From: Fistulifera solaris
Taxonomy: Eukaryota
Assembly: GCA_030295235.1 (NCBI GenBank)
Contig: AP026123.1
Location: forward strand, 1,364,001 to 1,428,000
Direction of reading: 5' to 3'
Length of the DNA stretch: 64,000 bases
The notes under the pieces are model-generated. The model worked only from the letters and a program-made list of their open reading frames with translations, had not been told where the DNA came from and ran no database searches. Positions within the stretch are counted from its first letter, which is position 1. Each line of letters begins with the position of its first letter. Position numbers and translations under genes: made by a program. This document shows, in pieces, positions 813 through 57,750 of this stretch.

Positions 813-1535
813 TCATGACTGAAATGTACATCAGTCGTGGTCTCCCTGAACCTACAATTTGAGTCGATAGTAAATACAGAAGACAACGTTTCGTGCAATG
901 CAAAACGCTGCTAAAAACTATTGCATTGCCGCGACGACAAATGGAGCTCAAGTAGTTAGCTGAACAAACGACTGTGAGGCAGCATTGTCGCTCAAATGAA
1001 ATTGATTCATGACTGCACCATTCATTCTCAATTTTCTTACTGACCTGCAGTCGTTACGAAATACGGACAACACTTTGGTCTATAGTGAAATACGGCAGAA
1101 AACGTTTCGAAGGCTTTTCGACGTACAATATCAAGGCGTTTAATGCAAACGCTGCTCAAGACTATTGCATTTGCCACAACGACAAATGGAGCTCAAGATA
1201 GTTTGCTGAACAAACGAATGCGAGGCAGCACTGTCGCTCAAATGAAATTGATTCATGACTGAAATGCAGTCGTGGCGAAATACGGAAAAACTTTGGTCTA
1301 TAGTGAAATACGGCAGACTACCAAGGCTTTTCGACCAATTTTTTCGACGTACAAATATCAAAGCGTGTCATGCAAACGCTGCTTACGACTATTGTATTGC
1401 CACAACGACAATTGGAGCTCAAGATAGATAGTCTAGTTTGCTGAACAAACACATTGTTGGCAGCATTGTCGCTCAAATAAAGTTGATTTGCGGTCTTGGA
1501 TAAGTTGATTGTATACGACACTTTGGACAATAATA
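813..1535 (+). repeat. Degenerate tandem array (3 full + 1 partial unit, periods ~194/246/234 bp) headed by the dispersed hairpin element
   Basis: TCATGACTG heads at 813, 1007 and 1253, eroded head near 1487. Shared blocks: GCAAACGCTGCT..ACTATTGCATT..GACAAATGGAGCTCAAG..CTGAACAAAC..GGCAGCATTGTCGCTCAAAT. Confidence 0.85.
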
Positions 1536-1805
1536 CCAGTAGTAGATTCGGTTGACCTTTCATAAAGCAGACGGAGGTTTATAGTGCTTATATTGTAGCT
1601 CAAGTTTACTGAATTCGTTGATGAAGTCGAAATCTTAACTTATCCATAGAACTGGATGTAATTGTCCAACAAATGCTGACTTAAGCGTTTTCCTACGATT
1701 CGGATGCCCTATGAAATAGCCTAACATGGACAACATGACAAAAAGCTTACAATCATAACAGTCCCACAGAAACTAGACTTTTTCACAAGCGTAACAAACC
1801 AAAAA

Positions 1806-2988
1806 TTACTCGTAAGTTAATTCATCCACATTTTCAAAATCGAACAGCATTCCGTACTCCAAATCGAACTTCGACTCCACAGCCACTCCGATCCCAGTAC
1901 CAGAGCTTTGGTAATAATAACCCGCCTCATTGATAAAAAATCAGATAGACTTCTTCACCATGTGAGCCTTCGTAGTTCACAACTGATCCGTCCCCTGCGA
2001 CAAACAGAGGGTCCCCTTTTCTCACAAGTTGGTAATCACGATCTTGTAGTGATTTGTGAACCATTAACGCTGGGAAATTCGGGTTATCGGGATCACAGGG
2101 CCACTTGATCTTTCCCGAAATTTCTCCCGGCCTTACCGCGGGAGCTGTACGAAAGCAAGGGACCCATCCATCCGGAAACGAATCCTGAAGGTATCCATAG
2201 ATATCCTCTCCCATATTCACGCGCTGTAAGAAATCCAAAATTGCATGCAGCGCCGCCTCTGTGTTCTCTACAGCGTCATGACGTAAGACGCCGACTGGAA
2301 CCGGTCCTACTTCAATCGTAAATCCATGCTTCGCAGCGGATGAAAGGTTGGGACGATGCATCCGTTCCGGAATGGAATGCATAAGGCAACGAGAGCCGGG
2401 ACACTTGAGTGACACGTAAGCAGCAGCTTGGGCCATGAGTTCATCGCCTTCAGGAATGATGATTGTTGTACCCATATTACTGGTAGTCGAGTGTAGGTCA
2501 ATACATACATCGACTTCATGACTGTTTTCATCGCATTTCGAACCCAGTATTTCGTCCAGTTCTCGAGCTCGAATACTTTCTACCGTATCAAGACGACGTT
2601 GATTTATTGTGCTTCTTGATGAACTTTCATCAATCGCACATAACTTATCCACGACGAACTCACGATTTAGATCCGTATCGACAAATCGTTTGTTGAGTAA
2701 GTGTGCTTCGGGGTTTCCCAGGATTGTTTCTAATTGCAAAGACGGATATTTGCTTTCCCACTTCTTGCGTTGCATTTCCAACGACTTTATGCACCAAACA
2801 CCTGCGTGCGAATTTGCTTAGCCGTCACAGCTCTCGACGACGAAAGCAAGAATGAATCATTTCGTACCTGTGTATTCGTTACCGTGCGTGCCTCCAACGA
2901 TCATGACGCGGTTGATCGGTGAAGACAGCGCGCTGCATACGGTAATAATGCAAACAAGTGATGATACGGCAGTTATTGAATTTATCAT
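1806..2988 (-). CDS. ASPA: Aspartoacylase (AstE/AspA family) with N-terminal signal-like peptide
   Basis: Exon 1 MINSITAVSSLVCIITVCSAL...VGGTHGNEYTG; intron 2802-2867; motifs RFVDTDLNR, DLHSTT, IEVGP. A frameshift at the A6 run (~1935) restores a LIFINEAGYY C-terminus. Confidence 0.85.
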
Positions 2989-3140
2989 TGTTGTTAAGTT
3001 CTAGTCCGTTTTGATTTTTGAAGAAATAATGAACCACATGCCGACTTCATTGTCGATCGAGCGTTTTGCGCATTTTCGTTTTTTTCTCGTTGCGCCGAAA
3101 TGCAGAAAGCAGAAACGAACTTCGTGGGCGAAAACGGTGC

Positions 3141-3170
3141 GACGTCATGAAGCGTGACGTGTGTGACGTG
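3141..3170. promoter_or_regulatory. Cluster of three TGACGT (bZIP/aureochrome-type) sites upstream of ASPA
   Basis: ACGTCA at 3142, TGACGT at 3155 and 3164, ~150-180 bp upstream of the ATG. Confidence 0.35.
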
Positions 3171-3424
3171 TCAATGTAGACTCATCTTTTTGTTGCATAG
3201 TCAAGCTGCCTATGCGACATTTACATTCTGTCGTTTTAGAGGAGACGTAGGTTGGGTGTTGGGTGGCATAAGTTTAGTTTCATGTGTCATGTGTAACTAC
3301 TAGAGAGTCTACTCTCCAGACTAAATAAGTGATGCTACATATCGCCAACAATCTATCTATGAAAATTCTGAATGCCCATGCGTCTGCTAAAAAAAGCTGG
3401 TACAGAAACTTGCCTGGCGAAACA

Positions 3425-4326: not shown

Positions 4327-4379
4327 ACTATAAACATCAGATGTATATTACTTTTTTCAAGATTTAATTTCAGTCACGA
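4327..4379 (-). repeat. Dispersed hairpin element copy
   Basis: Reverse complement TCGTGACTGAAATTAAATCTTGAAAAAAGTAATATACATCTGATGTTTATAGT. Its spacer GAAAAAAGTAATATACA nearly matches the 51203 copy. Confidence 0.65.
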
Positions 4380-13482: not shown

Positions 13483-13644
13483 TTTTGAAACGAATTTAAA
13501 TGAATGCTAGGGTATAGGACGAAGACCGATAGTGATGTCTGTAATGTGAGAAAGATTTGTCGACGAATTTACGAGCGACGTTTGCGTCGTTTCAAGAGAA
13601 ACGCATACGTCGACAGACGGCCGACGGCAGGACGAAAACACCGT

Positions 13645-14830
13645 TTTCAGAATATCAGGAAGACGTACAGAATTTCTGTACGATTCAAAACACATGGTCC
13701 CGAATATCTGGAATGTCGACCATTGACCCAAAAACACCGATAATCCAGAATTTCTGGAAACTCCACAGATTTCCTGTATGACCCAAACACCAATGCTTCA
13801 TTCCAGGATTTCTGGAACGTGCACACGATCTCTGTGCGACGCAAAGCACCTATTCCGGAATATCTGGAAGCCGCACAGAACTTCTGTACGATTCAAAACA
13901 CATGGTCCAGAATTTCTGGACCATCCACAGAATTTCTGTGTGACCCAAATATTTATTCCAGAATTTCTGGAAAATGCACAAAATCATTGTCTGACGCAAA
14001 ACTCCTAATCCGGAATTTCTGGAACGTGCACACGATCTCTGTGCGACGCAAAGCACCTATTCCGGAATATCTGGAAGCCGCACAGAACTTCTGTACGATT
14101 CAAAACACATGGTCCAGAATTTCTGGACCATCCACAGAATTTCTGTGTGACCCAAATATCTATTCCAGAATTTCTGGAAACTCCCCAGATTTCCTGTATG
14201 ACCCAAACACCAATGCTTCATTCCAGGATTTCTGGAACGTGCACACGATCTCTGTGCGACGCAAAGCACCTATTCCGGATTATCTGGAAGCCGCACAGAA
14301 CTTCTGTACTGGTACGATTCAAAACACATGGTCCAGAATTTCTGGACCATCCACAGAATTTCTGTGTGACCCAAATATTTATTCCAGAATTTCTGGAAAA
14401 TGCACAAAATCATTGTCTGACGCAAAACTCCTAATCAGGAATTTCTGGAACGTGCACACGATCTCTGTGCGACGCAAAGCACCTATTCCGGAATATCTGG
14501 AAGCCGCACAGAACTTCTGTACGATTCAAAACACATGGTCCAGAATTTCTGGACCATCCACAGAATTTCTGTGTGACCCAAATATTTATTCCAGAATTTC
14601 TGGAAAATGCACAAAATCATTGTCTGACGCAAAACTCCTAATCCGGAATTTCTGGAACGTGCACACGATCTCTGTGCGACGCAAAGCACCTATTCCGGAA
14701 TATCTGGAAGCCGCACAGAACTTCTGTACGATTCAAAACACATGGTCCAGAATTTCTGGACCATCCACAGAATTTCTGTGTGACCCAAATATTTATTCCA
14801 GAATTTCTGGCAAATGCACAAAATCATTGC
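13645..14830. repeat. Higher-order tandem repeat: ~52-bp double-palindrome monomers in 207/213-bp tetramers
   Basis: Monomer TTCCAGAATTTCTGGAA-nnn-SCACAGAATTTCTGTG-YGACNCAAA-n. Order from 13743: E,A,B,C,D,A,B,C,E,A,B(+6),C,D,A,B,C,D,A,B,C,D(partial). Confidence 0.95.
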
Positions 14831-15821: not shown

Positions 15822-15908
15822 AATGATTTGATAGAGTCTATGATGAAGCCTTCGATCTAAAGCAAGTTTGAATTTGTACAAAATTGTTCGCTATCCGTCA
15901 AACTATCT

Positions 15909-23139: not shown

Positions 23140-23531
23140 GGTTGAATTCGTTTTTGTTGATTGAATAGTTGTATAATACTCCGTTTTTCAGTTTTATGGA
23201 AAGAACTGGATGTGCGCTCGTCGCGTTGGATGAATTCAGGTTGGAGTTCGCATAGTTTGACACCTTCGGTAGGCAGTTGCGAACCCCGCAACCCGAACCT
23301 CTGCTGTTTCATCATTGGACCGTTCGAGTTGAAACAAACACTCTGTCTTCTGTTTCAGCCGGCTTTTCCTAATGATCAACCGCTCAACCGCATACTTTCA
23401 TTCTTTTTCTTTATTATTTTAAAAACTAGACCCTAGCAAAAGGTAAAGAGCAATAACAGGAAACAGGAAATAAATACCTGGTACAATTAATGTGAAAAGA
23501 ACCTACACTTTGGGTCTATAGTACATACGGA

Positions 23532-24340
23532 GGAATTTCGCGCACTTGCGATTTCAGCCGGCAATGTCTTCGAGTCCTGACCTTCATGTTTTTACCATGA
23601 TCCAAACAGATGGTTGTACCAATCCACGACTGGATTTCTGTTTTGAGACTGCATCAATTCTTTTGTACACGCAGCCTGCAGCGCGAATTTTTCTGTCTTT
23701 TTCGGGTTTGATTATAGTCTCATTACATTAATAGATCTAAAGCTTACTATGCTCTCACCTTGGAATATCGCGCAATTACGATTTCAGCCGGCAAATGTCT
23801 TCGAGTCCTGACCTTCATGTTTTTACTATGATCCAAACAGATGGTTGTACCAATCCACGACTGGATTTCTGTTTTGAGACTGCATCAATTCTTTTGTACA
23901 CGCAGCCTGCAGCGCGAATTTTTCTGTCTTTTTCGGGTTTGATTATAGTCTCATTACATTAATAGATCTAAAGCTTACTATGCTCTCACCTTGGAATATC
24001 GCGCAATTACGATTTCAGCCGGCAAATGTCTTCGAGTCCTGACCTTCATGTTTTTACTATGATCCAAACAGATGGTTGTACCAATCCACGACTGGATTTC
24101 TGTTTTGAGACTGCATCAATTCTTTTGTACACGCAGCCTGCAGCGCGAATTTTTCTGTCTTTTTCGGGTTTGATTATAGTCTCATTACATTAATAGATCT
24201 AAAGCTTACTATGCTCTCACCTTGGAATATCGCGCAATTACGATTTCAGCCGGCAAATGTCTTCGAGTCCTGACCTTCATGTTTTTACTATGATCCAAAC
24301 AGATGGTTGTACCAATCCATGTCTGGATTTCTGTCATGAG
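23532..24340 (-). repeat. Near-perfect tandem repeat, 231-bp unit x ~3.5, each unit carrying a minus-strand copy of the dispersed hairpin element
   Basis: ATTTCAGCCG at 23551, 23781, 24012 and 24243. Element copies at 23594-23646, 23825-23877, 24056-24108 and 24287-24339. Confidence 0.95.
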
Positions 24341-26719: not shown

Positions 26720-26771
26720 TCATGACTGAAATGCAGTCTTGGTTAAGTTCGCTTACACTTGAGGCCATAGT
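26720..26771 (+). repeat. Dispersed hairpin element copy
   Basis: TCATGACTGAAATGCAGTCTTGGTTAAGTTCGCTTACACTTGAGGCCATAGT; the first 19 nt are identical to the 1253 copy. Confidence 0.8.
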
Positions 26772-39127: not shown

Positions 39128-39227
39128 TCATGACTGGAACGCAGTCGCGGTAGAGCTGAGCCCACATTTTGGAGCTATAGTAATACGGTAGACAAAGAAA
39201 CCGTAAACCAACACTTTGGCCTATAGT
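39128..39227 (+). repeat. Dispersed hairpin element copy with duplicated second box
   Basis: TCATGACTGGAACGCAGTCGCGG..ACATTTTGGAGCTATAGT (39128-39181) plus ACACTTTGGCCTATAGT (39211-39227). Confidence 0.8.
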
Positions 39228-39436
39228 AATTAACACGTAACATCGACAATAAAAATGAGGCGGTGCGTTTTGCAAAATAATTTTAAAAACGATAACGACA
39301 ATTGCGTATTGTGGTTCATGAACTTGCAGAGTGATTATTAAATGACTGTGTGCGAGGAAACGGGCAGAACGTAAGCCCGATAGCAGAATTCTGACTTCTG
39401 TCGGCGTAGTCGTCAAGCAGATGATTTCGCTATACG

Positions 39437-42426: not shown

Positions 42427-42485
42427 GGGACAAATCAAACTAAAAACTAATCTATTTCACGCAAACTATTTTAATTACCGTGAAA

Positions 42486-42934: not shown

Positions 42935-43448
42935 TGTGTAATCTGTAGAAAGATCTCAAGACGCCATTCACCTGACGATTTAGTATCTCTTCTTGGAGAA
43001 GTCTTTAATAATATGGTCGTCTATTTGATTCAAGAAAACAATCAGCAGCAGCGGCGGCTTTGTTGCATGAATGTGAAATGCGCCCATGGTGGGAAAATTT
43101 TGCGCTTGCCGAGCGTTGACCGTCGCGGTAACCTTATTCGTAAAACGCGACAAAACTGTTGTTGCTTATACTGATCGAAACCGGAATGACTAACCTTAAT
43201 GACAAATGATCCTTTTGAATGACTTTGCGTCACACACGTGACTAAATCAAGACTACTTATACTCGTACGTGTTTTACTTCCACTTGGCACCACAAAACAT
43301 TTCAAAAATTTCAACAACAGCAAAAACAAAAGCGTGAACTTCAACGACACAACAGAGAAGGGACATCAACCAGAACCCTCTCTTTTGCCCTAATCGAAAT
43401 TCGGAACCAGTTACACTTTTGAGTTCTTTGCAGAAATTTCGTTTCACC

Positions 43449-44490: not shown

Positions 44491-44587
44491 AGAATTAATA
44501 ATAAAAGATCTGTTTATTTCCGTACCTAGATTTAATGACTCGTTCCGAGTGATGCAGACTATGATGCGAGGAAGCTGAAGCAATGTC

Positions 44588-45659
44588 TCACTGATCTGGA
44601 TGTGTTTTCCATATCCGAATAGTTCCATCTTCGGATCCTGACGCGTAGGTGGAGCCGTCGGGTGAGTATCGAAGGCAACGGATGGGTCCATGGTGCCCTT
44701 TGTGACACTCCAGCTCTTGCCCGGTGGCCGTAGCAAAGACCCGGACCCACAAATCGCTACCTCCCGCTACAAACAATTCACCGGATGGATGCAACGAGAC
44801 ACCGCCTTCCTCTCGAAAATGAATGGGCATTTTGTACGAATGCATCAAGGATCGGTCCGCCAGGTTGAAAAAGTATACTTTGTCGCCTGCTGCCACGGAA
44901 AGTATCTGACGCGAAGCAGTGGTGTTCGTGATTTCCATATCGCGGATTTCCACTCCGTCTTCAGTTTTTAAAACGTGTATCAGATTCCCCGGGGACTTGA
45001 GAGAATCGATCTGCCAAAATCGAATACAACCATCGGCGCCACCCGCCAACAAAACATTATTGGACAGCCAAGAGCATTTGTTTATCCCAATCTTCGAACC
45101 AGAGGACTGGGGGATCTCCAGCGGTGCGTTCTTTGGGTAAAGTAAATCATAAATTCGAATGATTCCTTCGTGCCCGCCAGTCGCGAGCCACTTACTATTG
45201 GGTGTAAAGTCACAAGTCTTTACAATATGGTTGTGGGGCAACTGGTACAAATCCTTGCCTGTGATGGCATCCCAGACATGAACACTATAGTCACCGCTCG
45301 CGGTTGCTGCTAAATTCCCTGACGGATCGAGTCGACAGCACCATACGGCGCCTTTGTGGCCTACAAACGTACCGATCCAATCGCCTGTGATTCCGTCTCG
45401 AACCATCGGTTTCTTATCTATGGCAACAAATCAGGAGGTTAGATGGCATTGAGTTTCCTACTTTGGTCGATTTGGCCAGCGCATACGCTTTACAACGAAA
45501 AGCTTCAAGCGCCTTACCATGACAGGCCGAAATGAGCAGAGTTCTGTTTTCCCCCGACACATGGATAAATTGGAGCTCGGCGAGAGGTCGGGTGTGTCCG
45601 GGACAAACGATAGGGATCTGGCGACCCTGATTCTTGTCAGCGGTATCATCCGCGCCCAT
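44588..45659 (-). CDS. STRAP: WD40 protein STRAP/UNRIP
   Basis: IVCPGHTRP...LISACH, intron 45418-45517, DKKPMVRDGITGDWIGTFVGHKGAVW; YASGSEDGTIRIW. Confidence 0.92.
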
Positions 45660-46740
45660 GTTTCTGTTATTATCAACTCAAAAAGCTAGGCTTTCAGTAG
45701 AAATAATGAAAAAGCGGAACGATTTTTGCTTGCCTCGCATGCTGCGTTTTTGAATGTCATTATTGCGATGCTGTAAGTTAGTACAGTAACACTCAAAACT
45801 CCAAACCTCCAAACACGGTTTTCGCCTAATGAAGTCAAAGCCACTCAGCACGGAAGATAACACTAAAAGCGATACTCCTAAAATATGGCACCAGTCCCGG
45901 ATAAAATTAGTTTTTCTTTAGTCACGAATCCTTTAAGTGGGCGCAGTCTGTCCGTGCACCCTCGACGACATTTTTATAACCCACTACGACATGGAAAGAA
46001 AGAGGAGTACCGCTCCAAAACAACATATACTTACAAGATTTATATGACAGAGCTCTGTACTTTGTAGCCTTACTGTGATGAGACTCGTAACATTGGGCAA
46101 AAAAATGCAAGGGGATTGCCCATGATTTTTTGGCTAATTTGGCTCATTGTTTGCCACAACAACAGGTGAGGAAATTGTTGACCTCTAAAGGATACTCTTC
46201 CCGTTCTGCACGATTTTCTCATTTAAACTTTCAATAGTGCTAATGAACGTACGGTGACGGTGAGAAATGAGGCCCAAGCCGTTCAGAAACTGCTTGAAAA
46301 GCTCAATATTGCGCCTTTTCAAAGACACTGGTCGAGCAATTACAGTGCGCCAGCAGATACTCCCTCGCAATGCCTTGAGCCGTAGATACCCTCATTTTCC
46401 TTCGGTTTCGGGTATACTGCACTGCATGACCATCGGCGTTCGATGCGGCGTCCAAGAATCCATCTCAAACCCATTGAGAAGAAGGAAGATACAACGGACG
46501 ATTGGAGCGAAACCCTCACTGGGATAGCTGAGCAACATGCTGTAATGAATAACCATTAGGACTCTTCTAGCGTGAGAATTGTCGTCTTGATGTCATTCTT
46601 GATTATGCTACTATGAGAATTATCAAGTATTCTAAATGTCTACGTGCATTTATTTCATATCCTTCGGAAATACTCTTCAAATTATAACCTTACATTTGTT
46701 TATTTATCTTCGCCGAAACAACAACCAGAATGTTGGTGAC

Positions 46741-49700
46741 TTAAAATGAAGGCGATCGCGTTCTTACTTTCTGACCGTTCGAATCCGAAAGCCGCAAGTT
46801 CCCACGTGCATGAGATCGAGCAGGTGAATCATTCGTCATTCTGAGTTTCACAGCACAAGCAGAGATTGAAATGACATTATACACTTGTGACTTGTATACC
46901 AGTCCACCGGACTCTGCTGGTACAGCGCGGTAGGCTGCGCAGGAAAGAAAACATTGAGACTAATTCATAAAAAGGCTGCAGAAGTGACACTACTCAAAAC
47001 GTACCTAGCATTGCATTGCCACCCAGTGCTGCAACATGGGCGCGGACGATAGCATTGCACTCAGTGACGAAACGGTTGAATTCTCTTGCTTCTAGGCCAC
47101 GTGATTCACGAATGAAATGGAAGCTTAGCAGACCGAGATACTCTGTGATTTCACCACCTTTGACGTAATGAAGTGGAGTAAGTTCGACTGGAACCTCCTC
47201 AACATTCATTAGCCACTCATTGCTATTAGCAACTGCCTGCCCTTTTCCACCATAGCTACCGCTCTCTCCAACCGAAATCGAAGTCAAAGGTGTCGCTGGA
47301 AGCGGTAACTTCGGAGCATTCGACAACTCCGCGATACTGTCTGTGCGGCTTCTGTGCAAAATCGGTGATAATCTGGGCAACAAAGACTTGGGAGATAGCC
47401 TTCCAGGAACACGAGGACTTAGGTCAATTTGCGCGACTGACGACAGAGCTGATGACCCCTGATCTGAAATGCTTCTTTTGTGAGTTTTCTCCGCAGCCAC
47501 GGTTCGGTGCAGCCTTCGCATTTCATCACTCAACTTATCGACTATAACCGTCGAGCGACAAAGCGCAATAAGCGGTTCTGTCTTGAAAAGCACTTCAATA
47601 CCTTCCTGAATATCCTTTTGAATTAATCTCATCTCAGAATCCTCTCTGCGCCTTACTTCTAGCTCATCTTGTCTGCTGTCATCGGAATCACCCCCTGTCA
47701 TATCTGTCTCGTTAATCTTTTGAGTCGCTTCAAAGCGTCGCTCGAGAATAAGTTTACCAGTGCAAAGAAGCTCGACTTGATCGTCCGGCGTGAGATTTAC
47801 TTGAGTACGGACGCCGCAAATGACAGCCGGGGCGAAATCCTTGATTCTATTGCACAGTTTCGAAAAAAGCTCTTGAAAAAGACTCGAGAAAAGAAGATTG
47901 CTCCTCGTGCCCCTAGTGGCGGGATTCCACTTGAATCGCAGCATGGCCATGACCATTTGTCCGTTGATTTCTTCAGACATTATACCGCCTGATCCCTTTC
48001 CAAACGCGGGAAGATGCGAAGTAGATGCGAGCGATATTCCCTCCGGCAGAGGTTTGTCCAACAAAACACTCAGAAAATCCTCATCTGTTTCGTCATCAAT
48101 CTCAAGCACAAACGGCATCTTGTCATCGCGATACAGCCTCCTCCTTCGCCTTCGACCCATACCATTACCATCATTTCCAAGTTTGGGATCAGCTTTATCG
48201 TCGTGCATGATTTCTTCGCGCAAGTCTTCGAAATCAGACACAACTGAACCTATTGATTTGATTCCGGTATCATCATGAGCAACAAGATCGCCGTAGTCTT
48301 CGAGATCAAGTTCTTGGTCGATCTCTAACACTTCCCTAGCTCCAGTATCAGTGACATTTTTAGTTACCGATTCGCCATCAGCATCATTATCCGTATCGCT
48401 TTCGCTTTGACTGGAAGAGGAGCTCGAAGATGATGTGCTCTCCGAATCAACGCTAGAGAAAGTGCCATCTTCTTCATTTTGCTCAAAAACACCTGGATCA
48501 GTCCTTTCCGATTGTTCAATTCGCAACTGTCGATCCTCAAAACTTCCGGATTGATCGAAAGCTACCGTTCCCAAGACCCGCTGTTGCTCATTTCCCTCAT
48601 CACCTTCCGATTTTCGTAATAAACGTCGAGATTTCTTTGCACTTTCTTTGCGACGCGAAAATTCGGCTCTCGCAGCAGCTCGACGTGCTTGCGCTTTTTT
48701 CAGCTTCAAAGCATGTCTCTTTCTAACACGTTCCGAATGTCGCGCAGCAGCTTCAATCAGGCGTTGCCGATTTCGGTTCGATACGACCTCAATCTGACGC
48801 TGTAACTTTACGACTTGATGATCCTCTTCATCTTGGACGGCAATGGTTCGCTTAATCTCCAGCGGCCTGGGCGCTGGCATTGCGGTACAATAAACCGCCG
48901 TTCCGGTTGCCGTAGACACAATCAATTGTCTGCCTACATCGACCTCAGTCTTCAAACTAAACACGGCATTTCTCCCTAATACCTTCAATTTCACCATGAG
49001 CTGCCGGGCGAGATCATACTCTAAAAAGGGAAGGGCTTCACTAACAGCCAAAGCGTCTGGTTCACCGGTTGCTTTAGGCCTTGATCGACAGACTCGTGCC
49101 TGAATAAAGACTCCTGTACCACGAATTGGTAAATTGCCAGGGGTTTCGACAGTCGAAAAAATGACCTCCGGTACCCACTTTTTACCACAATGGAGACACG
49201 GGACAAGCTTCAAGTTGGTGAATGGTGCGCGACGATGGGAGTAGGGGACATGAACAGCTGTACATGGCTTAGTTCGTCGTCTTCGTAGAGCCTTGACATG
49301 TGTGTCAGTGTTCATGTAGAAAGTGTTGCCATGGTAGCCCGGAGAAGTGGGAGAGCCCTGTTTGGTATCACTTTCATCGTCGCCAAATAAGGGCGGAACA
49401 GGAACGGATTTCGACATCCGTAGATTGCGTCTGGAGCTACGATCCATTACGGCTCGTCTCGATGACGGGCTCGAGGGTGCTTGCAATCCATCCGACAGTC
49501 CTTCGGACAAGCCAGTCATTTCAGATTGTTCCCCTTTGTCCTCACCGGACCGGGAGGTCCACAGCCTCGGCGCGGTCAGATCTGGAAGACCGCGAACGGT
49601 AGCGGCAGTACCTGTGATGGAAAGAATAGCGACATCATCATGAATGGTGGAAGCTTCCAAGTAACCAACAATGTGGGTACAGCAAAGAATCTTGGCATGG

Positions 49701-51040
49701 GCTCGAATTTCGTCACGGAGCTCTGTCCACCACGAGTCTCGTGTTTCCTGATCAGATAGTTTGGAAGCCAGATTTCCCAGATACTTTACTGAACGCGCTG
49801 TTACAAGACCTCCCAATCGGATTCGAACCGACGGATCAAAATCACGAAGCGTCAACAATTGCACCAGATCGTTGTCGGGATTATCGCGATGACGGGCCAC
49901 GGCTGCCAAGGTTGCTTCCGAAAGCCAGAATCGAGATGACTCCATTCCTCCATCAATAGATCTTTCGAACGTTTTCAAGTGATCGTCTTCATTGCGAGTG
50001 ATCTGATTGGAGGACGGAGATTTGTTGTTTGGTGATAAGCAGGACATTGCTCCAATTGTTCCGATGGACGCGGACGCCTTGGTCGGCTGTTTCCTTCGTC
50101 TTTGTAGCAACACGGCAGTTCCGTACGTACGCGCCACAATACCCGAATCGCCTTCCACATCAAAGTTTTGAAAGTACCCAATGACAGCATTAGCACCCAT
50201 TTCTTGCACGGTCTTACACATGCGACGACGAACCGAAGCATCCAACAAATAAAGAAGCGTTTGCCGCGTTTCATGACTCTCGCGGGCGCGACGAAAATTA
50301 TCACTCCATTCAAATTCGGGATCATCCGCCACTACCAGCTCCTCGACGAAGCCAAAGACGTGAGCCACTTCGAACCCACTCGCCGGATCGATGCGCGAAA
50401 AGGGAAGCAGTCGGACTCCCGCGGACGAATCGCGAAAGGGGTTGACGTCGCCAATGAACGTCAACTTGACAGAAAGCAGCAGCTCTCCTCGAACTCCGGT
50501 TAATGTGTCATACAAAGGAAACCATCCATCAATACCTCCTCCTTGATCGGCGTCATTGTCATTTTCTTCGCTCCGTCCCGACTCGGCTGTCAGTAACGGA
50601 TTCAGATCGACATAGACAATGCCGATACTCGGATCGGTCGTCCGCGAAGTAGAAGAAATGGGCGAAGCCAATGACGCAGCCTGTTCCGCATCGCATACTT
50701 TAAAAACTAGCGGCTCATCTTGCAATAAAGTATCATCGGAGACGTCGAAACGAAATTCTTCATTCCAAACGGGCGCACACGTATTGCGACAGACTTTGGT
50801 TTTTGCCGTGTATCCCGACGATGATGATGCGGAAGAATATGTGCGACTCGAATACGTGGCTTTTCGTACCATTTGCTCTTCTTCCGATAGAGCAATGGAA
50901 AAGGCATGCCCGCCCAAGGTAACAATCACGTACGGATCGGGACTGGGCGATCCTTGCAAAAGAGCTGTTCCGGTGCGAGAAGATTCTGGAGGAGGCAAAT
51001 TGCGAGCGCCCTTGACGCGGACTTTGACAGTGGAAGGCAT
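46741..51040 (-). CDS. C2CD5: C2 domain-containing protein 5 (KIAA0528-like)
   Basis: N-terminal C2 ([27 protein letters not shown]); [36 protein letters not shown]; intron 46935-47004. Confidence 0.88.
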
Positions 51041-51202
51041 GACTGATTAAAATTTATAGGAGAAATGGCGAAACACGCACAAAAGGTATGAAAAAGAAGG
51101 ATAGCAAGACAACGCAATGGGTTTTGCTGCGCATCTTTTTTGTCGTTGACAGCTGCGGAAAGCGGCATTCGCAGATCAGAGATAAGGGTAAAATAATTGT
51201 AT

Positions 51203-51254
51203 TCGGGACTCCAGGCCGGTCGTGAAAAAGTAATATACACTTTAGGACTATAGT
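51203..51254 (+). repeat. Dispersed hairpin element copy (degenerate head)
   Basis: TCGGGACTCCAGGCCGGTCGTGAAAAAGTAATATACACTTTAGGACTATAGT; exact 52-nt spacing. Confidence 0.65.
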
Positions 51255-51454
51255 GAACAGGCAAAGCCAAGATGCGCAAGGAACAGGGAACACTGCCGAC
51301 AGACAAACGTCTTCCATTGCAAGCCAAGGAAAAACAACGAAATGCACCGCACGACCGCAATTTTGTTTTCGTTGCGCTTCTCGACAGAACAATAACATAA
51401 GAAGCACGAAACAGAACTTCGTAGACTTAGCTAAAGACACAATATACACGCTTC

Positions 51455-52833
51455 ATGATGGAACTGGATTCGCAACTAGCCTCCACAACAGCACCCGGCA
51501 AACTGTTTGCCAGCCGGGAAGAACTCGCGGCGCATTACAAGTCCGATTGGCACAAGTACAATCTCAAGCGACGAGAAGCCGGCCTTCCGATGCTGTTGGA
51601 GCCCGATTTTCAAGCACGTCTGGACGCGGCCTTGGCGTTGCGTCAAGAGAAAGAGACCGGGACGAGTCATTTGAAGAAGGAGAGTAAAAAGCATTTTAAG
51701 AAGAAAAGGAACGGTATTTCGCAGGTATCGCAAGCGTCGGCGTACGACCGGATGACGAAAGAAACAGAAACTCCGACGACTGATTCCGTAGACGTTGAAC
51801 CAACAGCTGAGAATTCATATCCTACTACAGAAGAACCTGCAGCACCAGAGGCGATTGAAATTGAGCCGCGACAATGTTTATTTGATCGACACATGTCTGT
51901 ATCTGTACAAGCCAATGTGGAACGCATGCAACGGAAATACGGCTTTTCATTCCCGATGCCGAGTATTTGACGGATCTGACGGGTCTAGTCGGGTATTGTC
52001 ACGAAAAGATCAAGCTGGGTCATGTGTGTTTGTACTGTCAAAAGGTCTTTACGACATGGCAAGGATGTCAAAAGCACATGATATCCAAACGCCACACCAA
52101 GTTGCGATACGAACCTGACATTGATTTAGAAGAGTTTGCGGTCTTTTATGATTTCGCGGAAGCTGATGCCGAGTACTTGGGTCGTCCATCATCCGAAAAG
52201 AAAACGGTTGACGCTGAGATGGAAGAAGTGTCTGGTGACGACGAGGATTGGGAAGACATCTCGGATGACGAAGTTGCAGCGATGGACGTGGAAGATGATG
52301 ACCACGATAATGAAGTGATGGACAATGATTTTGATGAAGCCATTGCGAGAATGGGATTTGACGTGACAGCATTGGGCGAACTGGTTCTGCCGGATGGTCG
52401 TATTATAGGCCACAGATTATACCGACGATACTACAAACAACGTGCGCCACGAACGAACACAAGCAACGAAGCAGTGAATGCGGCCCGCTTGGCAGCTAGT
52501 GAACGTCTCTATAGAGGTAAAGTGTACCGTATCGGGTACCAGGGCGACCGTAATAGCTCTAATGATCCTTCGAGCGGCATGACGGCGTTGATGAAAGCCG
52601 GCATAGCTCCAGGCATGGCCGCAGGGCGGGCTGGAAAAGGTCTTTTGGTCAAGAGCGGTGGCTCCTTCACAGCAATGTCGATTTATCGTTATCAAGCAGC
52701 CATGCGGAAGCAGCGAAAAGGCGATGTAAAGGGGCTGAATTTGTACAATCGCACAAGTCTGAATATGAACCGCATGGACAAAAAACACAATCGCTTGATG
52801 AACGGAGTAAGTGTAGCGCATGCGAAAAGATAA
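51455..52833 (+). CDS. ZNF622: Pre-60S factor REI1/ZNF622
   Basis: HYKSDWHKYNLKRR; CLYC.K.F......QKHM..K.H; ELVLPDGRIIGHR..RRYYKQ; frameshift ~51945. Confidence 0.9.
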
Positions 52834-52963
52834 ATATTACAATTTAATTGAAAGTGTAGTTTTGCTGGATTAGACCCTCTGGTTCTTGGTGAAACAAAAA
52901 TTGAAAGTTGCGACCCACGTTCTCCGAAACAGTGATAATTGAGGCACATTGAGATCAAAACAG

Positions 52964-54070
52964 CTATTGCATCTGTGGTGGTATCTGCTGTTCCGTCATT
53001 TCGACTGCCACATCTTCACCATTGTGATCGTGCTCTAAAGTATTACTGTCGGGGCTCACAACGCTTACCTGTGTCCATCGGTAGCGTGTTAACCGTGTCC
53101 ACAAGTAATGCAGCACATTTCTCGAAATGATGGTCCCATTCGCTCGTTCTGTTTCTATTATATGCTCCAGAACATCATACTTACACAGTGGGCACATGGA
53201 CTGACGTTCCGTAAGCCATGGTACGATGCATTCGGTATGATACTGATGTTGGCATGGTAAGCAAGTCCAGGGAGTCGATTGGTCATCATCAAAACAAATC
53301 GCACATTGCTCTACTACCGCGCGTTCGGTCGGTTGCGGCAGTGCCAGCACTTGCTCTTCCGTCAACTTGGCTCCTGCAGCATTAAAAACAATTCTTCCGT
53401 CAGCTTGTACATGACCACGAGCCCCCATCAAAATCATTGCACAAGCACTCAAACTGATCAGCATAAAGAACAATCCCAACGTAGTGACCATCATTTCCTG
53501 CAAATCCGCAGTAGTAATCAATCCTGGTGGAGGTTTCGAATCCATGCGAATGACCGGCCCTCCTTGAGACAGTATTTCCTTCGGTTGTGACGCCAAATAC
53601 GACCTCAGCGATCGACCCGCATGGTGAGTAATCGACAAGAGAACCAAGCGGGAGTCCCCGTACTCGGTAAACATGGGCATCAACGTGTCTTCACCATCCA
53701 GTTCATAATTGTATACAATCAAGAATTTGACAGCCGCCCCCATGGATTCCGCCACGGCGGCTTTGCGCGCAAACGGACAATTGCCTCGCGACGCGAGCAT
53801 GACGACCGCGTCGGCCGGAAGAACCGTCGTATTTGAAATCCGAATCGCTTTCGGTTCAATAAAGGAAGTCGCATTGCTGTCAAAATTGTCACACAGATAC
53901 GGATTTTCGGGAAGAAATTGCAAGCGCGCGTTGTATACTTTGTTGTCATTCATGTAGCGACCGAACAAGGCCGGAAGACTCGGAAGTGTTTCATTGGCAA
54001 AGTAAATCGTAGCGTGTGCGGTCGGCAGCAGCCACAGTGATAAGCAGGTAAACAAGAAAGAGGATAACAT
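52964..54070 (-). CDS. PA-TM-RING E3 ligase (RNF13/RNF167/RMR-like)
   Basis: Signal peptide; PA domain (ASRGNCPFARKA); TM; RING-H2 CAIC...LPCQHQYHTECIVPWL..CPLCK. Confidence 0.9.
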   Translation of the reverse strand: MLSSFLFTCLSLWLLPTAHATIYFANETLPSLPALFGRYMNDNKVYNARLQFLPENPYLCDNFDSNATSFIEPKAIRISNTTVLPADAVVMLASRGNCPFARKAAVAESMGAAVKFLIVYNYELDGEDTLMPMFTEYGDSRLVLLSITHHAGRSLRSYLASQPKEILSQGGPVIRMDSKPPPGLITTADLQEMMVTTLGLFFMLISLSACAMILMGARGHVQADGRIVFNAAGAKLTEEQVLALPQPTERAVVEQCAICFDDDQSTPWTCLPCQHQYHTECIVPWLTERQSMCPLCKYDVLEHIIETERANGTIISRNVLHYLWTRLTRYRWTQVSVVSPDSNTLEHDHNGEDVAVEMTEQQIPPQMQ

Positions 54071-54205
54071 GGTCCTTCGATGAGTAGAAAGAGGAAAGAA
54101 GCAATGCTTATTTGATGAACATGGGTTCGACGGAACTGGCAGCAGAATAATGTCAAAAGCTAATACACATGTTCTTCACGAGGCGCGACTCCTCACTGCT
54201 CCTCA

Positions 54206-54387
54206 GGGCCATTTCTAACCGGAATGTTCGCAATTCGTAATTTCGTATTCGCGCGGTCGCGCACGTTTCCATTTTGCCCAAACGAGAGGGAAATAAGAAA
54301 ATACGAAAGTTCTCGTCTGTCATTTTCTCCGGATACGAACGCGAAATGCGAAAATACGAATACGAAACTTCCGGTTAGAAATGGCCC
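54206..54387. mobile_element. 182-bp MITE, PIF/Harbinger (Tourist)-like
   Basis: Perfect 19-bp TIRs GGGCCATTTCTAACCGGAA (54206-54224 / 54369-54387), extending imperfectly to ~50 bp; 3-bp direct repeat TCA at 54203-54205 and 54388-54390. Confidence 0.85.
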
Positions 54388-54848
54388 TCACTCCTCACTC
54401 CTCCTCTCGTTTCTGTCTACGTGGGGTTACGTACATTTTAGTACTAGCTATAGAGGCCATAGCGCGGAAGCCGAGCGGCGACAGGAGCACTTGCAATCGA
54501 TGCGATTATTCCTACATTAGCACCATCAACAAGGTCAGCAATGAAATTCATTCATTACCTAATCTAGTGCTTCGAGCTTCGATGAGTTGGAACAGTGCCT
54601 GCACAGCGTCTTCAATGAAGCGAAAAAGTCGCTGCAGTACGGGACTGAATGTATTTTGAGTCACAAGAAATGTCTTCTACACGTAATTACAGAGTAGTTG
54701 ATTACCACTGCGATTTGAACGAGTTTCGGAAAAAAATGCGGCGCATTTAAAAAAAAAAAAATAACGAAAAGAGGCGACTGACTCTCACCTGGTATCATTA
54801 TTCAACTCAGTTCATCTTACATCAATTTGTAATAGTTACAACAGGAAA

Positions 54849-55595
54849 ATGTCTACCAAGAAAAGACCAGGAGTGCAGGCAGGCATGGAATTGGCGGCGC
54901 AGCCTGACAACGTGGAACTGTGGCTCGCTACGGAAAAGAAACTAGCCGATTTGCCCATACCGAAATTGCCGGAACTCGAGAAGAAGTTAAAGTCTTTTTC
55001 GAAGAAGGAAAATCTCACCTTGAGCGATCTAGATACGATTGTTAGTTGGAAATTTACCGTGGGAAAAGCTCGTCCTTCGATTCGCAAACTAGTGCAGTCC
55101 AATCCGGAGGAGGAAGTTTATACCTTCACAGATAAAGCCATCCGCATGGCCAGAATTACTCGCGCAACAGACAGTGATAAGAGAATTAGTGAGTGTTTGG
55201 AAGAACTGGAGAAACTAAGTGGTATAGGACCGGCGACAGCGAGCGCCGTGCTGACCCTCTTCAATCCTTCGGTCTTTTGTTTCATGTACGACGAAGTCAT
55301 TGATTGTTTCATGCCCCAGCGAGATTATAAACGATCCACGTATCTTTCCGTCCGAAAAGAGTGTGAACGAATTGCCAATGCTCTCAATGCGGCCAGCTCT
55401 TCGTCGTCTTGGACGCCGGCTCGTGTTGCTACCGTATTGTGGACGGCCTGTCGAGACTGCGCCATCCATGGAACTAGCTCAAAGCAGCCAGCTGCGGGTG
55501 ACAATACACAGGAAGATAAGAAGCCACCCGCCAGTCAACGTAAAACTGCCGAAACGAAAGAATCCGCTACCCGCCCCAAACGACAAAAACGATGA
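54849..55595 (+). CDS. Helix-hairpin-helix (DNA-glycosylase-fold-like) protein
   Basis: IVSWKFTVGKARP; LEKLSGIGPATASAVL (HhH); FMYDE; basic NLS-like C-terminus. Confidence 0.7.
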   Translation: MSTKKRPGVQAGMELAAQPDNVELWLATEKKLADLPIPKLPELEKKLKSFSKKENLTLSDLDTIVSWKFTVGKARPSIRKLVQSNPEEEVYTFTDKAIRMARITRATDSDKRISECLEELEKLSGIGPATASAVLTLFNPSVFCFMYDEVIDCFMPQRDYKRSTYLSVRKECERIANALNAASSSSSWTPARVATVLWTACRDCAIHGTSSKQPAAGDNTQEDKKPPASQRKTAETKESATRPKRQKR

Positions 55596-55621
55596 ATCGG
55601 CTATAAAAAACAAACTAAAAG

Positions 55622-57097
55622 TTAGGCCATTCGCTTCGCCGCGGCATTCTTTTGTTTTTCCCGTCGATTCGCCAGCTTTCGCTCTTTGGCTCTTTGGTTC
55701 CCTTTACTCCGATTGTCATTCGCATTGCCGTTGCTGGAAGACTCGGCATTCGTTGAGCCTTCGGTAGGCGCATCCTTCTTATTAGATCCACGGCCGCCTC
55801 TCCCACCGCGACCCCCTCGCCCCGCGTTCGGAATTCTCCCACCCTTTAATTTGTCCGCACCTCGATACATCTTTCCATTCTCAACAGAAGCATCTTCTTG
55901 CGCTACTTTTTTATTCGACGAAAGACGCTGTGTATGATTGGTGTTGCGATCGTCTTCCCAAAAAGCCTGTTCTTCCACAATACCCTTCAATACCCGGTTA
56001 TACGTCCGCACCGCATCATAATTATCGTACAGGCCTTCATCGGACGCTCTTCGATTCCCTTCTGTCTCATCGTACTGATCATCGTAGTCATCATTGTATT
56101 CATCATGGGCACCCTGTCGCATCACCATATCCAACATGTATGCTTCTTCTTCTTGTTGTCTCTGTGCTGCCAGCAATGCAGCCTTGGCAATTTGTTTCGC
56201 TTCTTCTTCTTCGGTCTCCTTGTTTCGTCCTTCGATGCGCCGCCGTGGCAATTTCCGATCGTATAGCCGCAACGCTGGCGGAAGATGATCCATGTCAATG
56301 AGGGCTGCAACCGTTTGCTCTACATCTCCCTTGTAGTACGACAAACACAATTCGACAAATCCTTCTCCCAGACCTGGTACTACTTGTAGTACTTGGTGGA
56401 TACGACGTTGCAACTCAACGCCCGGTTCGACGACGACGGGGGTGGATTGTTGGTTTTCTATTGACGAAGGAGACATCTGTGCGACCTTTGCAACATCTTC
56501 GATCGGTTGCCACAATAGTTGCAAATAGTCGACATGATCCGGATGCTTTTGAAGCAGAGTTTGTTGCCATCCGGGTTCATGATCTTGAAACCAATCGATG
56601 ACATCATTCCAGATAGGATCTTCGTGTAATTGATGTAAGAGAGGCAAATATTCTTCCCATGATAATTGATGTTTGAGTAAGAAAAGAGCCAGTATTTGTA
56701 CAATATTTGTGTCATTCGAGCGACGATGTGTCGTTTGCAATGTGGTCAGTTGCTCTGAAGTGAGATCCGGAACACGAGGTGCCAAATGATAAATTTCCGC
56801 TACGGCTTCCAAGCATTCCTCTCGGTTGCTATCATTCGTTTCTAAAACATGAAATAGTCCATCGCGCAGTGGCTCGACGATATGAGAATCTGGTATCACG
56901 TTTAAGAGCTGGCGCAGTGACGAGCGTACGGTCGTCCCCTCATCGAGTTTGGCCAGTAACTTTCCGATTTGATAAATCTGCAGTGCCGTCGGCCAGGGGG
57001 ACGACGACTCGCTGTTGCTGTTCCATGTAACAAGAGTGTTTTGAACACAAGCCAATAAATCAGCTGGAATATCACGTGGTGTCGCAGAACTTGTCAT
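55622..57097 (-). CDS. ASCC2: ASCC2/Cue3-like CUE-domain protein
   Basis: CUE-like VLQVVPGLGEGFVELCLSYYKGDVEQTVAALI; EYNDDYDDQYD; RGG and basic C-terminus. Confidence 0.72.
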   Translation of the reverse strand: MTSSATPRDIPADLLACVQNTLVTWNSNSESSSPWPTALQIYQIGKLLAKLDEGTTVRSSLRQLLNVIPDSHIVEPLRDGLFHVLETNDSNREECLEAVAEIYHLAPRVPDLTSEQLTTLQTTHRRSNDTNIVQILALFLLKHQLSWEEYLPLLHQLHEDPIWNDVIDWFQDHEPGWQQTLLQKHPDHVDYLQLLWQPIEDVAKVAQMSPSSIENQQSTPVVVEPGVELQRRIHQVLQVVPGLGEGFVELCLSYYKGDVEQTVAALIDMDHLPPALRLYDRKLPRRRIEGRNKETEEEEAKQIAKAALLAAQRQQEEEAYMLDMVMRQGAHDEYNDDYDDQYDETEGNRRASDEGLYDNYDAVRTYNRVLKGIVEEQAFWEDDRNTNHTQRLSSNKKVAQEDASVENGKMYRGADKLKGGRIPNAGRGGRGGRGGRGSNKKDAPTEGSTNAESSSNGNANDNRSKGNQRAKERKLANRREKQKNAAAKRMA

Positions 57098-57229
57098 ATT
57101 AAAGACTCTGTTTGTTGTTGCTGGTTGTTGTTATTGTTGCAAACGGATTTTGTTGATTTTTCCGAGAAACACAGAAAAATCTGGAATAATCCATCGCCCT
57201 TCAGTCTACCGTAGACTTTAAGGTCCTTA

Positions 57230-57354
57230 CCGGACTGCGCCCAGACTGCGCGCCGGACTGTTGAGTCTGCGCCGGACTACGCGAGTCTGCACCGGACAGC
57301 GCGTCGGACTGTTGATGAGAGTCTGCGCCGGACTATGCGAGTCTGCACCGGACT
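57230..57354. repeat. GC-rich minisatellite (GAGTCTGCRCCGGACT core)
   Basis: About 8 CCGGACT/CAGACT/CGGACA units; AGTCTGCRCCGGAC occurs four times. Confidence 0.85.
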
Positions 57355-57654
57355 TATCTACTATTGTTGTCGAAGATTGATTACAATTCTCCTATTTTGA
57401 TCTATTATCTAGACTACTATCCCTTCTTGCTTCCCCGTTCAGCTAAAGGGAAGACAGGCACATTCGGAGGCTGTGGAGGAATCCAGAGAATCGCAAAGAA
57501 AAATGGCCAGAATTTTTAGGCTTGGTAAAATGGCTGTTTCGTGAAAAGGACAACGTCCTTTACTAAAACAGAAACAATTCTATTCTATACAACAACGCTT
57601 TGGGTACTCTTGCAAAACTATGTTGTAGAACAAGGATCTAGCGCTCGATCCTTG

Positions 57655-57750
57655 TCGTAAAGTCGAATGCGCCTCCGCAATGTTTCACTTCGTTTTTGAC
57701 TATAGCCGCAAGTGTTGTCCGTTTTCGCCAGGACTGGATTTTAGTCATGA
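57655..57750 (-). repeat. Dispersed hairpin element copy (~95 bp similarity to the 1007/1253 units)
   Basis: Reverse complement TCATGACTAAAATCCAGTCCTGGCGAAAACGGACAACACTTGCGGCTATAGTCAAAAACG versus CAGTCGTTACGAAATACGGACAACACTTTGGTCTATAGTGAAATACG at 1048. Confidence 0.85.

What the first reader, a model, noticed from the sequence alone, without database searches (positions are those of the whole stretch)
813..57750. Dispersed 52-54-nt bipartite hairpin element with fixed-length variable spacer at 7 or more intergenic loci
Seen: copies at 813, 1007, 1253 and an eroded one near 1487 (+); 4379-4327 (-); four in the 231-bp array, best 24339-24287 (-); 26720 (+); 39128 (+); 51203 (+); 57750-57699 (-); and a headless copy at 23471-23522 (+). 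Consensus: (AT)TCATGACTGAAATSCAGTCGTGG - ~12-13 free nt - ACACTTTGGNCTATAGTRAA. The distance from the TC start to the ATAGT end is 52, 53, 53, 52, 54, 52 and 52 nt in the seven copies measured, although the spacer sequence varies freely. The head is an imperfect palindrome (CATGACTG/CAGTCGTG). All copies I found are intergenic, in both orientations, upstream of genes as well as between 3' ends. Inference: conserved boxes at fixed spacing look like a protein-recognised site, such as the terminus of a non-autonomous transposon (MITE or Helentron-like rolling-circle element) or a recombination or regulatory signal. I do not recognise it as a described family, and no cognate enzyme is encoded in the window.
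Basis: partly seen in the sequence, partly recalled or inferred. Interest (0 to 1): 0.8.

Follow-up and report, generated by a model that had tools for sequence, protein, structure and literature searches.

The report
Mobile diatom repeat with conserved palindrome
This short motif is the conserved core of a roughly 220-base repeat scattered between the genes of a hybrid diatom; the repeat kept spreading in both parent lineages, yet the stem of its palindrome changes far more slowly than neutral DNA, which suggests that a host protein binds it.

Summary
Real. The 52-54-nt motif is the core of a 205-235-bp monomer found as solo cores or short head-to-tail arrays; the head alone has 1,425 matches in this genome, control 0. 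The genome holds two subgenomes (81% identical at fourfold-degenerate sites), which gave two tests. Mobility: one young subfamily lies on odd contigs (21 of 22 loci, C1-C26), another on even ones (11 of 11). Young arrays have no fixed termini or short target duplication, but their tail-side ends cluster about 40 nt past the tail; 6 of 11 arrays of one subfamily ride inside a TA-flanked MITE. Constraint: in 19 orthologous old heads the stem (GACTG/CAGTC) differs at 13 of 190 sites, against 43 of 244 in the rest of the head; half of these copies lost the tail. The head side faces a gene start in 42 of 51 loci (background 55%). Best reading: a mobile, satellite-like repeat whose palindrome became a host protein-binding site. 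It fails membership tests for Helitron, Helentron and MITE ends. No mobilising enzyme or bound protein was found. This scan noted the family before in other windows of this genome; I found it in no paper searched.

The parts
813..1537 (+). Array of three monomers and an eroded fourth core: cores 813-871 (7-nt loop insertion), 1007-1086 (28-nt loop insertion), 1253-1304 (consensus head), eroded core ~1489-1537; linkers between them
   Evidence: the homoeologous gap holds a different, inward-facing pair of worn heads
4327..4379 (-). Solo core, worn head, intact tail; linker remnant upstream to ~4541
   Evidence: orthologous core in the other subgenome
23505..23522 (+). Tail box without head, abutting the oppositely oriented array
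23532..24339 (-). 3.5 x 231-bp array (98% alike); heads at 24339, 24108, 23877, 23646; the unit is a distant member of the monomer family
   Evidence: the homoeologous gap holds cores in another arrangement
26720..26771 (+). Solo core; head 22 of 23 identical to its homoeologue
39128..39227 (+). Core 39128-39181 plus a second tail box 39211-39227
   Evidence: homoeologue holds core-linker-core
45917..45931 (-). Tentative half head; the homoeologous gap holds a full core
   Evidence: weak
51203..51254 (+). Solo core with worn head, about 160 nt from the start codon of the minus-strand gene at 51040
   Evidence: orthologous worn core in the other subgenome
57699..57750 (-). Solo core in a divergent gap; orthologous core with a duplicated tail in the other subgenome
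57913..57938 (-). Tail box without head, one monomer length (188 nt) upstream of the 57750 core

Best explanation
A non-coding, non-autonomous tandem repeat (monomer 205-235 bp = 53-nt core + ~160-nt linker) that behaves as a mobile, dispersed satellite. SHOWN: it copied itself to new chromosomes separately in each parent lineage of this hybrid diatom; new inserts are head-to-tail multimers, random at the head-side end and ending loosely about 40 nt past the tail; some hitch-hiked in a TA-flanked MITE; arrays collapse to or grow from solo cores at one site; afterwards linker, tail and loop decay while the 5+5-bp stem of the head is kept. INFERRED: multimers come from rolling-circle-like copying of a circular or tandem template with one preferred end (enzyme unknown); the stem is kept by purifying selection because a host DNA-binding protein recognises GACTG-N5-CAGTC, most likely acting on transcription or chromatin upstream of genes.
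For: Subgenome-specific subfamilies: 21 odd / 1 even and 0 odd / 11 even loci on C1-C26 (Fisher p 6e-8); two young C3 arrays are absent from the C4 homoeologue. Ends: head side uniform (n 22, p 0.48), tail side clustered at monomer position ~90 (n 27, p 3e-4), none of 27 inside the core; no short duplication, mean shared word 4.0 vs 4.1 null in 17 arrays; 2 of 19 arrays flanked by ~380-410-bp host duplications. MITE cargo; the same MITE without any core on C5 and C9. Solo core opposite core-linker-core. Old shared copies: 15 of 26 core-bearing gaps, of 133 gaps, hold cores in both subgenomes (p 3e-11). Stem 13/190 differences vs loop 18/92, outer 25/152, fourfold sites 18.7%; stem vs rest of head p 8e-4; neutral simulation with my detection filter expects 32-36. 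No covariation: 1 alternative Watson-Crick pair at the five stem pairs in 101 cores. Head side faces a gene start in 42 of 51 loci vs 55%.
Against: No bound protein, binding data, RNA data or mobilising enzyme was found. The stem positions were chosen after a first look at the data and the 19 pairs were curated by hand. Loop indels are frequent (4-5 of 38 orthologous copies; loop-expanded subfamilies), which fits a hairpin or half-site better than a rigid dimer site. The young odd-contig subfamily spread with a worn head. The orientation bias is strong only in loci picked for perfect matches (25 of 27); in unselected C3 DNA it is 15 of 21 (p 0.10), in tandem gaps 15 vs 7 (p 0.13), in the young subfamily 2 of 7; head score does not differ by context. 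Gene strands come from my own codon model (118 of 122 correct). End positions are BLAST estimates and even-contig loci may share donors. Only C3/C4 were shown to be homoeologues.
Confidence: 0.48

Rival explanations
1. The core is the end signal of a non-autonomous HUH (rolling-circle) transposon such as a Helitron, Helentron or Replitron derivative: hairpin plus a terminus at the tail, copied one-ended with a fuzzy run-on into the next monomer; it has no host role.
For: TC start, hairpin and CTATAG-like end; tail-side ends never fall inside the core and cluster just past it; Replitron-1 carries variable downstream sequence at one end (passages of PMC10288648); top strand folds a modest hairpin (z -2.4 and -1.1).
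Against: Ends are not base-precise (positions 50-214); no inverted subterminal repeat; no match in the genome to PF14214, PF21859, PF05970 (controls silent or weak, so weak negatives); the paper found no Replitrons in diatoms; a dead insert should lose its stem at the neutral rate, and it does not.
Confidence: 0.18
2. An ordinary neutral dispersed satellite; the stem looks conserved because palindrome arms correct each other or because old heads are overwritten by active copies.
For: Most differences between homoeologous heads are common family variants; homoeologous gaps often hold different array layouts; overall head identity (87%) is near intergenic background (85%, inflated by alignment).
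Against: Arm-to-arm correction predicts paired double changes: none among 13 stem differences, and the T4-G20 mismatch persists in 81 of 101 cores. Overwriting should erase private oddities, yet at least 6 of 19 pairs share private head variants.
Confidence: 0.15
3. A directional core-promoter module: on the other strand it reads TATA-like box, second box, then an initiator-like word in the head, firing towards the neighbouring gene start.
For: Head side faces gene starts; 1 of 38 two-sided loci lies in a convergent gap vs 21% of gaps (p 0.001); a TCAHW initiator-like word is proposed for diatoms (passages of PMC4686930) and the head holds TCATT on the reverse strand only in some variants.
Against: Distance to the start codon is broad (10-750 nt in the loci) against 26-61 nt for the diatom initiator; TCAHW occurs in 68% of promoters, so it says little; the TATA-like tail is lost in half of old copies; absent from both U6 promoters; none of four head/tail words is in the published promoter-motif table.
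Confidence: 0.11
4. A sequence-defined replication origin or origin-licensing site; circles that carry it replicate, which both spreads it and keeps chromosomal copies under selection.
For: About one locus per 19 kb (24 groups in 464 kb), intergenic, bipartite; explains multimer spreading and stem constraint at once. A published putative centromere/ARS motif of F. solaris (10.1101/2021.11.10.468027 section 7) lies in a ~100-bp repeat with the same two arms around a long loop in 2 of 3 copies seen, each 100-560 nt from a core.
Against: That likeness is not significant by profile (0.6 bits, null 99th percentile 0.9) and two of the three loci were fetched because of cores. Diatom episome maintenance follows low GC rather than a motif (passages of PMC4976089). 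Palindromic sites are not typical of ORC (recalled).
Confidence: 0.08

Closest known systems
Dispersed or 'mobile' satellites: MSAT-11_cRei of Chlamydomonas (passages of PMC9977147) and euchromatic tandem repeat families of Tribolium castaneum (passages of PMC4675708)
   Same: Short arrays of one monomer inserted at unrelated sites on many chromosomes, without transposon ends; rolling-circle amplification and reinsertion proposed; one family (Cast5) carried in transposon-like flanks.
   Different: Here most old copies are reduced to a 23-53-nt core, one array end is phase-biased, and a 10-bp stem is conserved between subgenomes after insertion; copies lean towards gene starts.
Satellites with conserved boxes: CENP-B box-like motifs in Meloidogyne satellites (abstract of PMC3694981)
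   Same: A short conserved motif in monomers that are otherwise 32-64% alike, proposed to be protein-bound and to promote array rearrangement.
   Different: The box here is a palindrome unrelated to that motif as far as seen, is dispersed through gene-rich DNA, and no pogo-like DDE_1 protein was detected (control silent).
Helentron-associated HINE/DINE-1 elements (passages of PMC4067079 and PMC7492417)
   Same: Non-coding, short internal arrays of 140-230-bp repeats, a palindrome near one end, no target duplication.
   Different: No shared left and right flanks for most arrays, no inverted subterminal repeat pair, no T-rich target, no Rep/helicase partner found.
MITE or foldback elements with internal tandem repeats, e.g. 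Tetris with TIR-220 (abstract of PMC4079207)
   Same: 6 of 11 even-contig arrays sit inside a ~1-kb element with terminal inverted repeats and TA on both sides.
   Different: The MITE exists without the repeat and has few copies (6 right ends); it is a late carrier, not the source of the family.
Replitrons (passages of PMC10288648)
   Same: Direct repeats at both ends of core-linker-core units, a hairpin, one fuzzy end.
   Different: No transposase found (weak), reported absent from diatoms, other end not fixed here.

Membership tests
Helitron (canonical) | Precise 5' TC and 3' CTRR termini inserted between A and T (recalled) | tested here: not met
   Young arrays end at monomer positions 50-214 and start at any phase; base before TC is T or C in 95%
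Helitron (canonical) | Hairpin 10-20 nt before the 3' end (recalled) | tested here: inconclusive
   Hairpin present but about 30 nt before the CTATAG word; modest stability
Helitron / Helentron | Autonomous Rep/helicase partner in the genome | tested here: inconclusive
   No PF14214 or PF05970 match; first control silent, and no host Pif1 was found either
Helentron / HINE | Subterminal inverted repeats at both ends | tested here: not met
   No consistent inverted head or tail at the far end in 27 loci; flanks of 19 young arrays unrelated except one shared pair
Helentron / HINE | Insertion into TT / T-rich targets | tested here: not met
   Junction flanks of young arrays show no T runs as a rule
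MITE | Terminal inverted repeats bounding the element | tested here: not met
   Cores are direct repeats; inverted repeats belong to a separate carrier seen at 6 of 11 even-contig loci
MITE | Short target-site duplication | tested here: not met
   17 arrays: shared word 4.0 nt vs 4.1 null
Replitron | Replitron HUH transposase | tested here: inconclusive
   No PF21859 match, control silent
Replitron | Short direct repeat at both termini, one end exact | tested here: not met
   Head-side ends uniform over the monomer
Crypton / tyrosine-recombinase element | Tyrosine recombinase gene | tested here: not met
   No PF00589 match at E 0.1, control rang in 14 of 14; divergent Crypton proteins could be missed
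Retrozyme / structured RNA | Hammerhead core or other conserved RNA fold | tested here: not met
   Hammerhead pattern in 2 of 15 old and 0 of 64 young units; mean fold z -0.05 and -0.29 in 21 units; no Rfam family at gathering score
snRNA-type promoter | Same boxes upstream of U6 | tested here: not met
   Neither box near either of 2 U6 genes; other snRNA genes not examined
Dispersed / mobile satellite DNA | Head-to-tail monomers more alike within than between arrays | tested here: met
   95% within vs 85% between arrays, 64 units
Dispersed / mobile satellite DNA | Arrays at unrelated loci without transposon ends | tested here: met
Dispersed / mobile satellite DNA | Extrachromosomal circular or rolling-circle intermediates | not testable with these tools
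   Only assembled contigs were available
Host protein-binding cis-element | Purifying selection on the recognised bases | tested here: met
   Stem 6.8% vs 17.6% rest of head and 18.7% fourfold sites; partly post hoc
Host protein-binding cis-element | Demonstrated binding or effect | not testable with these tools
   Needs footprinting, pull-down or editing

The most novel reading that the evidence does not exclude
The core is a sequence-defined replication origin or chromatin-organising site of a diatom that spreads selfishly: monomer circles carrying it are amplified by the host's own machinery, with no transposase, and reinserted copies are then kept as working sites, rewiring origins or promoters differently in the two parent genomes.
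Probability: 0.1. Interest if true: 0.85.

Novelty: new variant of a known kind. Interest (0 to 1): 0.5.

Why it matters
Diatom cis-elements and replication signals are poorly known (the episome paper calls them unknown). A site present in well over a thousand copies, under selection at ten bases and differently distributed in two subgenomes, is directly testable: presence/absence between homoeologues can be set against published homoeolog expression bias, and the binding protein can be pulled down. It also gives a dated case of a satellite spreading without transposon ends, and two subfamily patterns that mark the subgenomes. If the stem has no function, what remains is an ordinary uncatalogued dispersed repeat.

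Tried and rejected
Partner enzymes in the own genome: PF14214, PF00589, PF21859, PF05970, PF03184 all without match (three controls silent). Rfam, tRNA, hammerhead and fold tests negative. U6 promoter test negative. tRNA primer-binding-site reading of the TGG+spacer (TRIM/LTR idea): rejected by eye against the recalled tRNA 3' pattern, not by a call. Likeness of the tail to the CRESS-virus nonanucleotide: recalled, untested. CpG decay: none in young units (6.5% at CpG vs 11% other G/C, 18 units). Sequencing runs: no RNA holder listed; laid contigs could not show starts, strands or circles. Clean empty sites: not obtained, intergenic divergence blurs junctions. Link to the published centromere/ARS motif: not significant by profile. 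Exact protein look-up found nothing. Literature: no paper with the head sequence and none describing this family in searches; Repbase and Dfam could not be searched, and the figures and supplements of the bioRxiv preprint, which map its motifs, were not visible.
Full report
OBSERVATION. Every copy listed is in the window. The seven measured lengths are exact; the copies at 813 and 1007 measure 59 and 80 nt because of insertions in the head's loop. A head+tail profile finds 14 full hits in 264 kb around the window and 0 in each of 5 shuffles. In the own genome (G000, 51.7 Mb, 62 contigs) the 22-nt head has 1,425 matches at up to 2 mismatches, the reversed control 0. Of 65 cores in 864 kb, 1 lies in conserved coding sequence, which covers 46-62% of that DNA. 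The window holds ordinary host genes and no transposase, HUH or recombinase family among 36 long ORFs.

HOST. The organism is a photosynthetic eukaryote (chlorophyll-binding proteins) with two subgenomes: C3 and C4 are colinear, 84-92% identical in long blocks, 81.3% at 20,406 fourfold-degenerate sites. This fits a Fistulifera solaris-type allopolyploid diatom (passages of PMC5935921; earlier notes e1-7528228, e1-7529759; a motif published for that species has 198 matches). The species name is an inference.

ANATOMY. The motif is the core of a longer monomer. Neighbouring cores lie 186-233 nt apart and the DNA between them is homologous but diverged (15 units; linker profile). The window's 813-1537 and 23532-24339 arrays both belong to it. 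In 101 non-redundant cores (of 128; many were selected for a perfect head) the most conserved bases are GACTGAA and CAGTC; the five Watson-Crick stem pairs show 1 alternative pair, so sequence and not just pairing is kept. Found through the linker alone, 26 of 33 downstream positions carry a head with at least 14 of 23 matches. The spacer falls into a few inherited types. Loop insertions are common, including multi-locus variants with a longer loop.

IT MOVES. A young subfamily (worn head, ~225-bp units) forms arrays at two C3 sites that are absent from the C4 homoeologue (a third C3 array lies outside the C4 stretch fetched). Its 77 matches make 28 loci: 21 on odd and 1 on even contigs among C1-C26, 6 on higher contigs. 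A second young subfamily with a canonical head has 25 matches in 11 loci, all on even contigs. Parity equals subgenome was shown only for C3/C4; the published motif's perfect matches follow the same parity. So the repeat spread to many chromosomes in each parent lineage after they split. Units are 95% alike within and 85% between arrays, with flat conservation along the unit (64 units).

HOW IT INSERTS. I examined 19 of the 28 odd-type loci and all 11 even-type loci. Odd-type flanks are unrelated except one pair sharing 300 bp; two left ends lay outside the fetched DNA. There is no short target duplication (17 arrays); 2 of 19 arrays sit between ~380-410-bp duplications of host DNA at 81% and 91% identity. 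Head-side ends are uniform over the monomer (22 ends, p 0.48); tail-side ends cluster near position 90 (27 ends, p 3e-4) and none falls inside the core (dropped: ends at MITE junctions, one of each pair with a shared flank, two unseen ends; even-type loci may share donors). Six of the 11 even-type arrays share arms that end in terminal inverted repeats with TA outside; the same ~1.2-kb element on C5 and C9 has no core, and it has 6 right ends in the genome, so the repeat is cargo there. At one site C3 has a solo core where C4 has core-linker-core. Inference: multimers are copied from a tandem or circular template with one preferred end and pasted without a dedicated integrase footprint. No partner enzyme was found (weak negatives but).

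THE STEM IS KEPT AFTER INSERTION. Of 133 syntenic gaps, 15 hold cores in both subgenomes, 5 in C3 only, 6 in C4 only (p 3e-11); several 'single' cases have a worn partner on inspection. I curated 19 orthologous head pairs: the 20 automatic pairs minus 3 non-orthologous, plus 2 below threshold, with one partner reassigned. Differences: stem 13/190 (6.8%), loop 18/92 (19.6%), outer positions 25/152 (16.4%). Stem vs fourfold sites p 3e-6; vs the rest of the head p 8e-4; vs a 14.6% intergenic rate p 8e-4. Neutral simulations with my detection filter give 32-36 stem differences. None of the 13 is a paired double change, and several pairs share private variants, which argues against arm-to-arm correction or overwriting. 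The tail is less constrained: intact in 19 of 38 copies. Caveat: I saw the pattern before fixing the positions.

PLACE RELATIVE TO GENES. With a codon model that called 118 of 122 strands correctly, the head side faces a gene start in 25 of 27 callable loci (of 34; tail side 11 of 21) and in 17 of 24 groups in unselected C3 DNA: 42 of 51 against 55% (p 5e-5). The effect is weaker outside the perfect-match loci (15 of 21, p 0.10), in tandem gaps (15 vs 7, p 0.13), and reversed or absent in the young odd-type arrays (2 of 7 callable). Convergent gaps hold 1 of 38 two-sided loci (p 0.001), though 2 of 35 vs 20 of 129 gaps in C3 alone is not significant. Distances to the start codon are broad, so a core promoter is unlikely.

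WHAT IT IS NOT. No Rfam family, tRNA, hammerhead core or stable fold; not the U6 promoter; no CpG decay. It fails the tested terminus features of Helitrons, Helentrons/HINEs, MITEs and Replitrons (see membership tests; passages of PMC4067079, PMC7492417, PMC10288648; canonical Helitron features recalled).

CLOSEST KNOWN. It works like dispersed or mobile satellites (passages of PMC9977147 and PMC4675708) with a conserved box (abstract of PMC3694981), and in part like repeats carried by MITEs (abstract of PMC4079207). What differs is the measured constraint on a 10-bp palindromic stem after insertion, the reduction of old copies to solo cores, and the one-sided end bias. A published putative centromere/ARS motif (section 7 of 10.1101/2021.11.10.468027) sits in a ~100-bp repeat with the same two arms around a long loop in 2 of 3 copies seen, but the profile score is not significant; it is a lead only. 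The head sequence is in no paper of the library, four head/tail words are absent from the promoter-motif table of PMC5935921 (supplement 4 only), and searches listed no description of the family; Repbase/Dfam and the preprint's supplements could not be seen. Earlier notes of this scan report what appears to be the same family in other windows of this genome; they are not independent support.

VERDICT. A real, abundant, still recently mobile satellite-like repeat of one diatom lineage. Shown: structure, spread in both parents, loose ends, MITE carriage, stem conservation. Inferred: rolling-circle-like copying and a host protein bound to the stem. New variant of a known kind; interest 0.5.

Noticed in passing
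L144 (G000:C12:990400-992700), L151, L152, L142, L146, L148: A ~1.1-1.2-kb non-coding MITE with terminal inverted repeats and TA outside (Tc1/mariner-like by the TA rule, recalled); low copy; carries the repeat array only on even contigs.
   Followed up: partly
864 kb of C3 and C4; window 23475-23483: The words TACCAGGTA, TACCTGGTA and TACCGGTA are very frequent (34, 39, 54), probably excision footprints of TA-duplicating transposons with CC..GG ends; 6 of 128 cores have one at the tail.
   Followed up: partly
L147:1336-1357, L149:523-544, L112:7446-7467: The published F. solaris 'centromere/ARS' motif 3 is part of a ~100-bp dispersed repeat with 198 matches, perfect ones almost all on even contigs up to C26: it may be a subgenome-specific repeat rather than a centromere signal.
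   Followed up: partly
G000:C4:599600-604600 (loci L118-L119): LTR retrotransposon with 206-bp terminal repeats 98% alike and broken protease/RT/integrase-like frames, absent from the C3 homoeologue.
   Followed up: no
window 13631-14829: 52-bp-period array with 207- and 426-bp higher-order repeats, longer than in the homoeologue; related words (CCAGAATTTCTGG-like) recur beside many arrays in other loci.
   Followed up: no
window 37996-38943: 290-bp tandem repeat, 2.5 copies at 97%, unrelated to the family studied, absent from the homoeologous alignment.
   Followed up: no
G000:C4 about 1283070-1283165: Two worn heads facing inward about 95 nt apart, in the gap homoeologous to the window's 813 array.
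   Followed up: no
L127 and L129 (C1): Two young arrays about 970 kb apart share 300 bp of left flank at 88%: array moved together with its flank.
   Followed up: no
L002, L008, L022, C3 about 674.9 kb: Recurrent 7-nt duplication of the head's first bases just upstream of the head.
   Followed up: no
window 39001-58500: A wetland metagenome run (X2) holds both near-identical and ~10% diverged contigs of this stretch, i.e. apparently both subgenomes.
   Followed up: no
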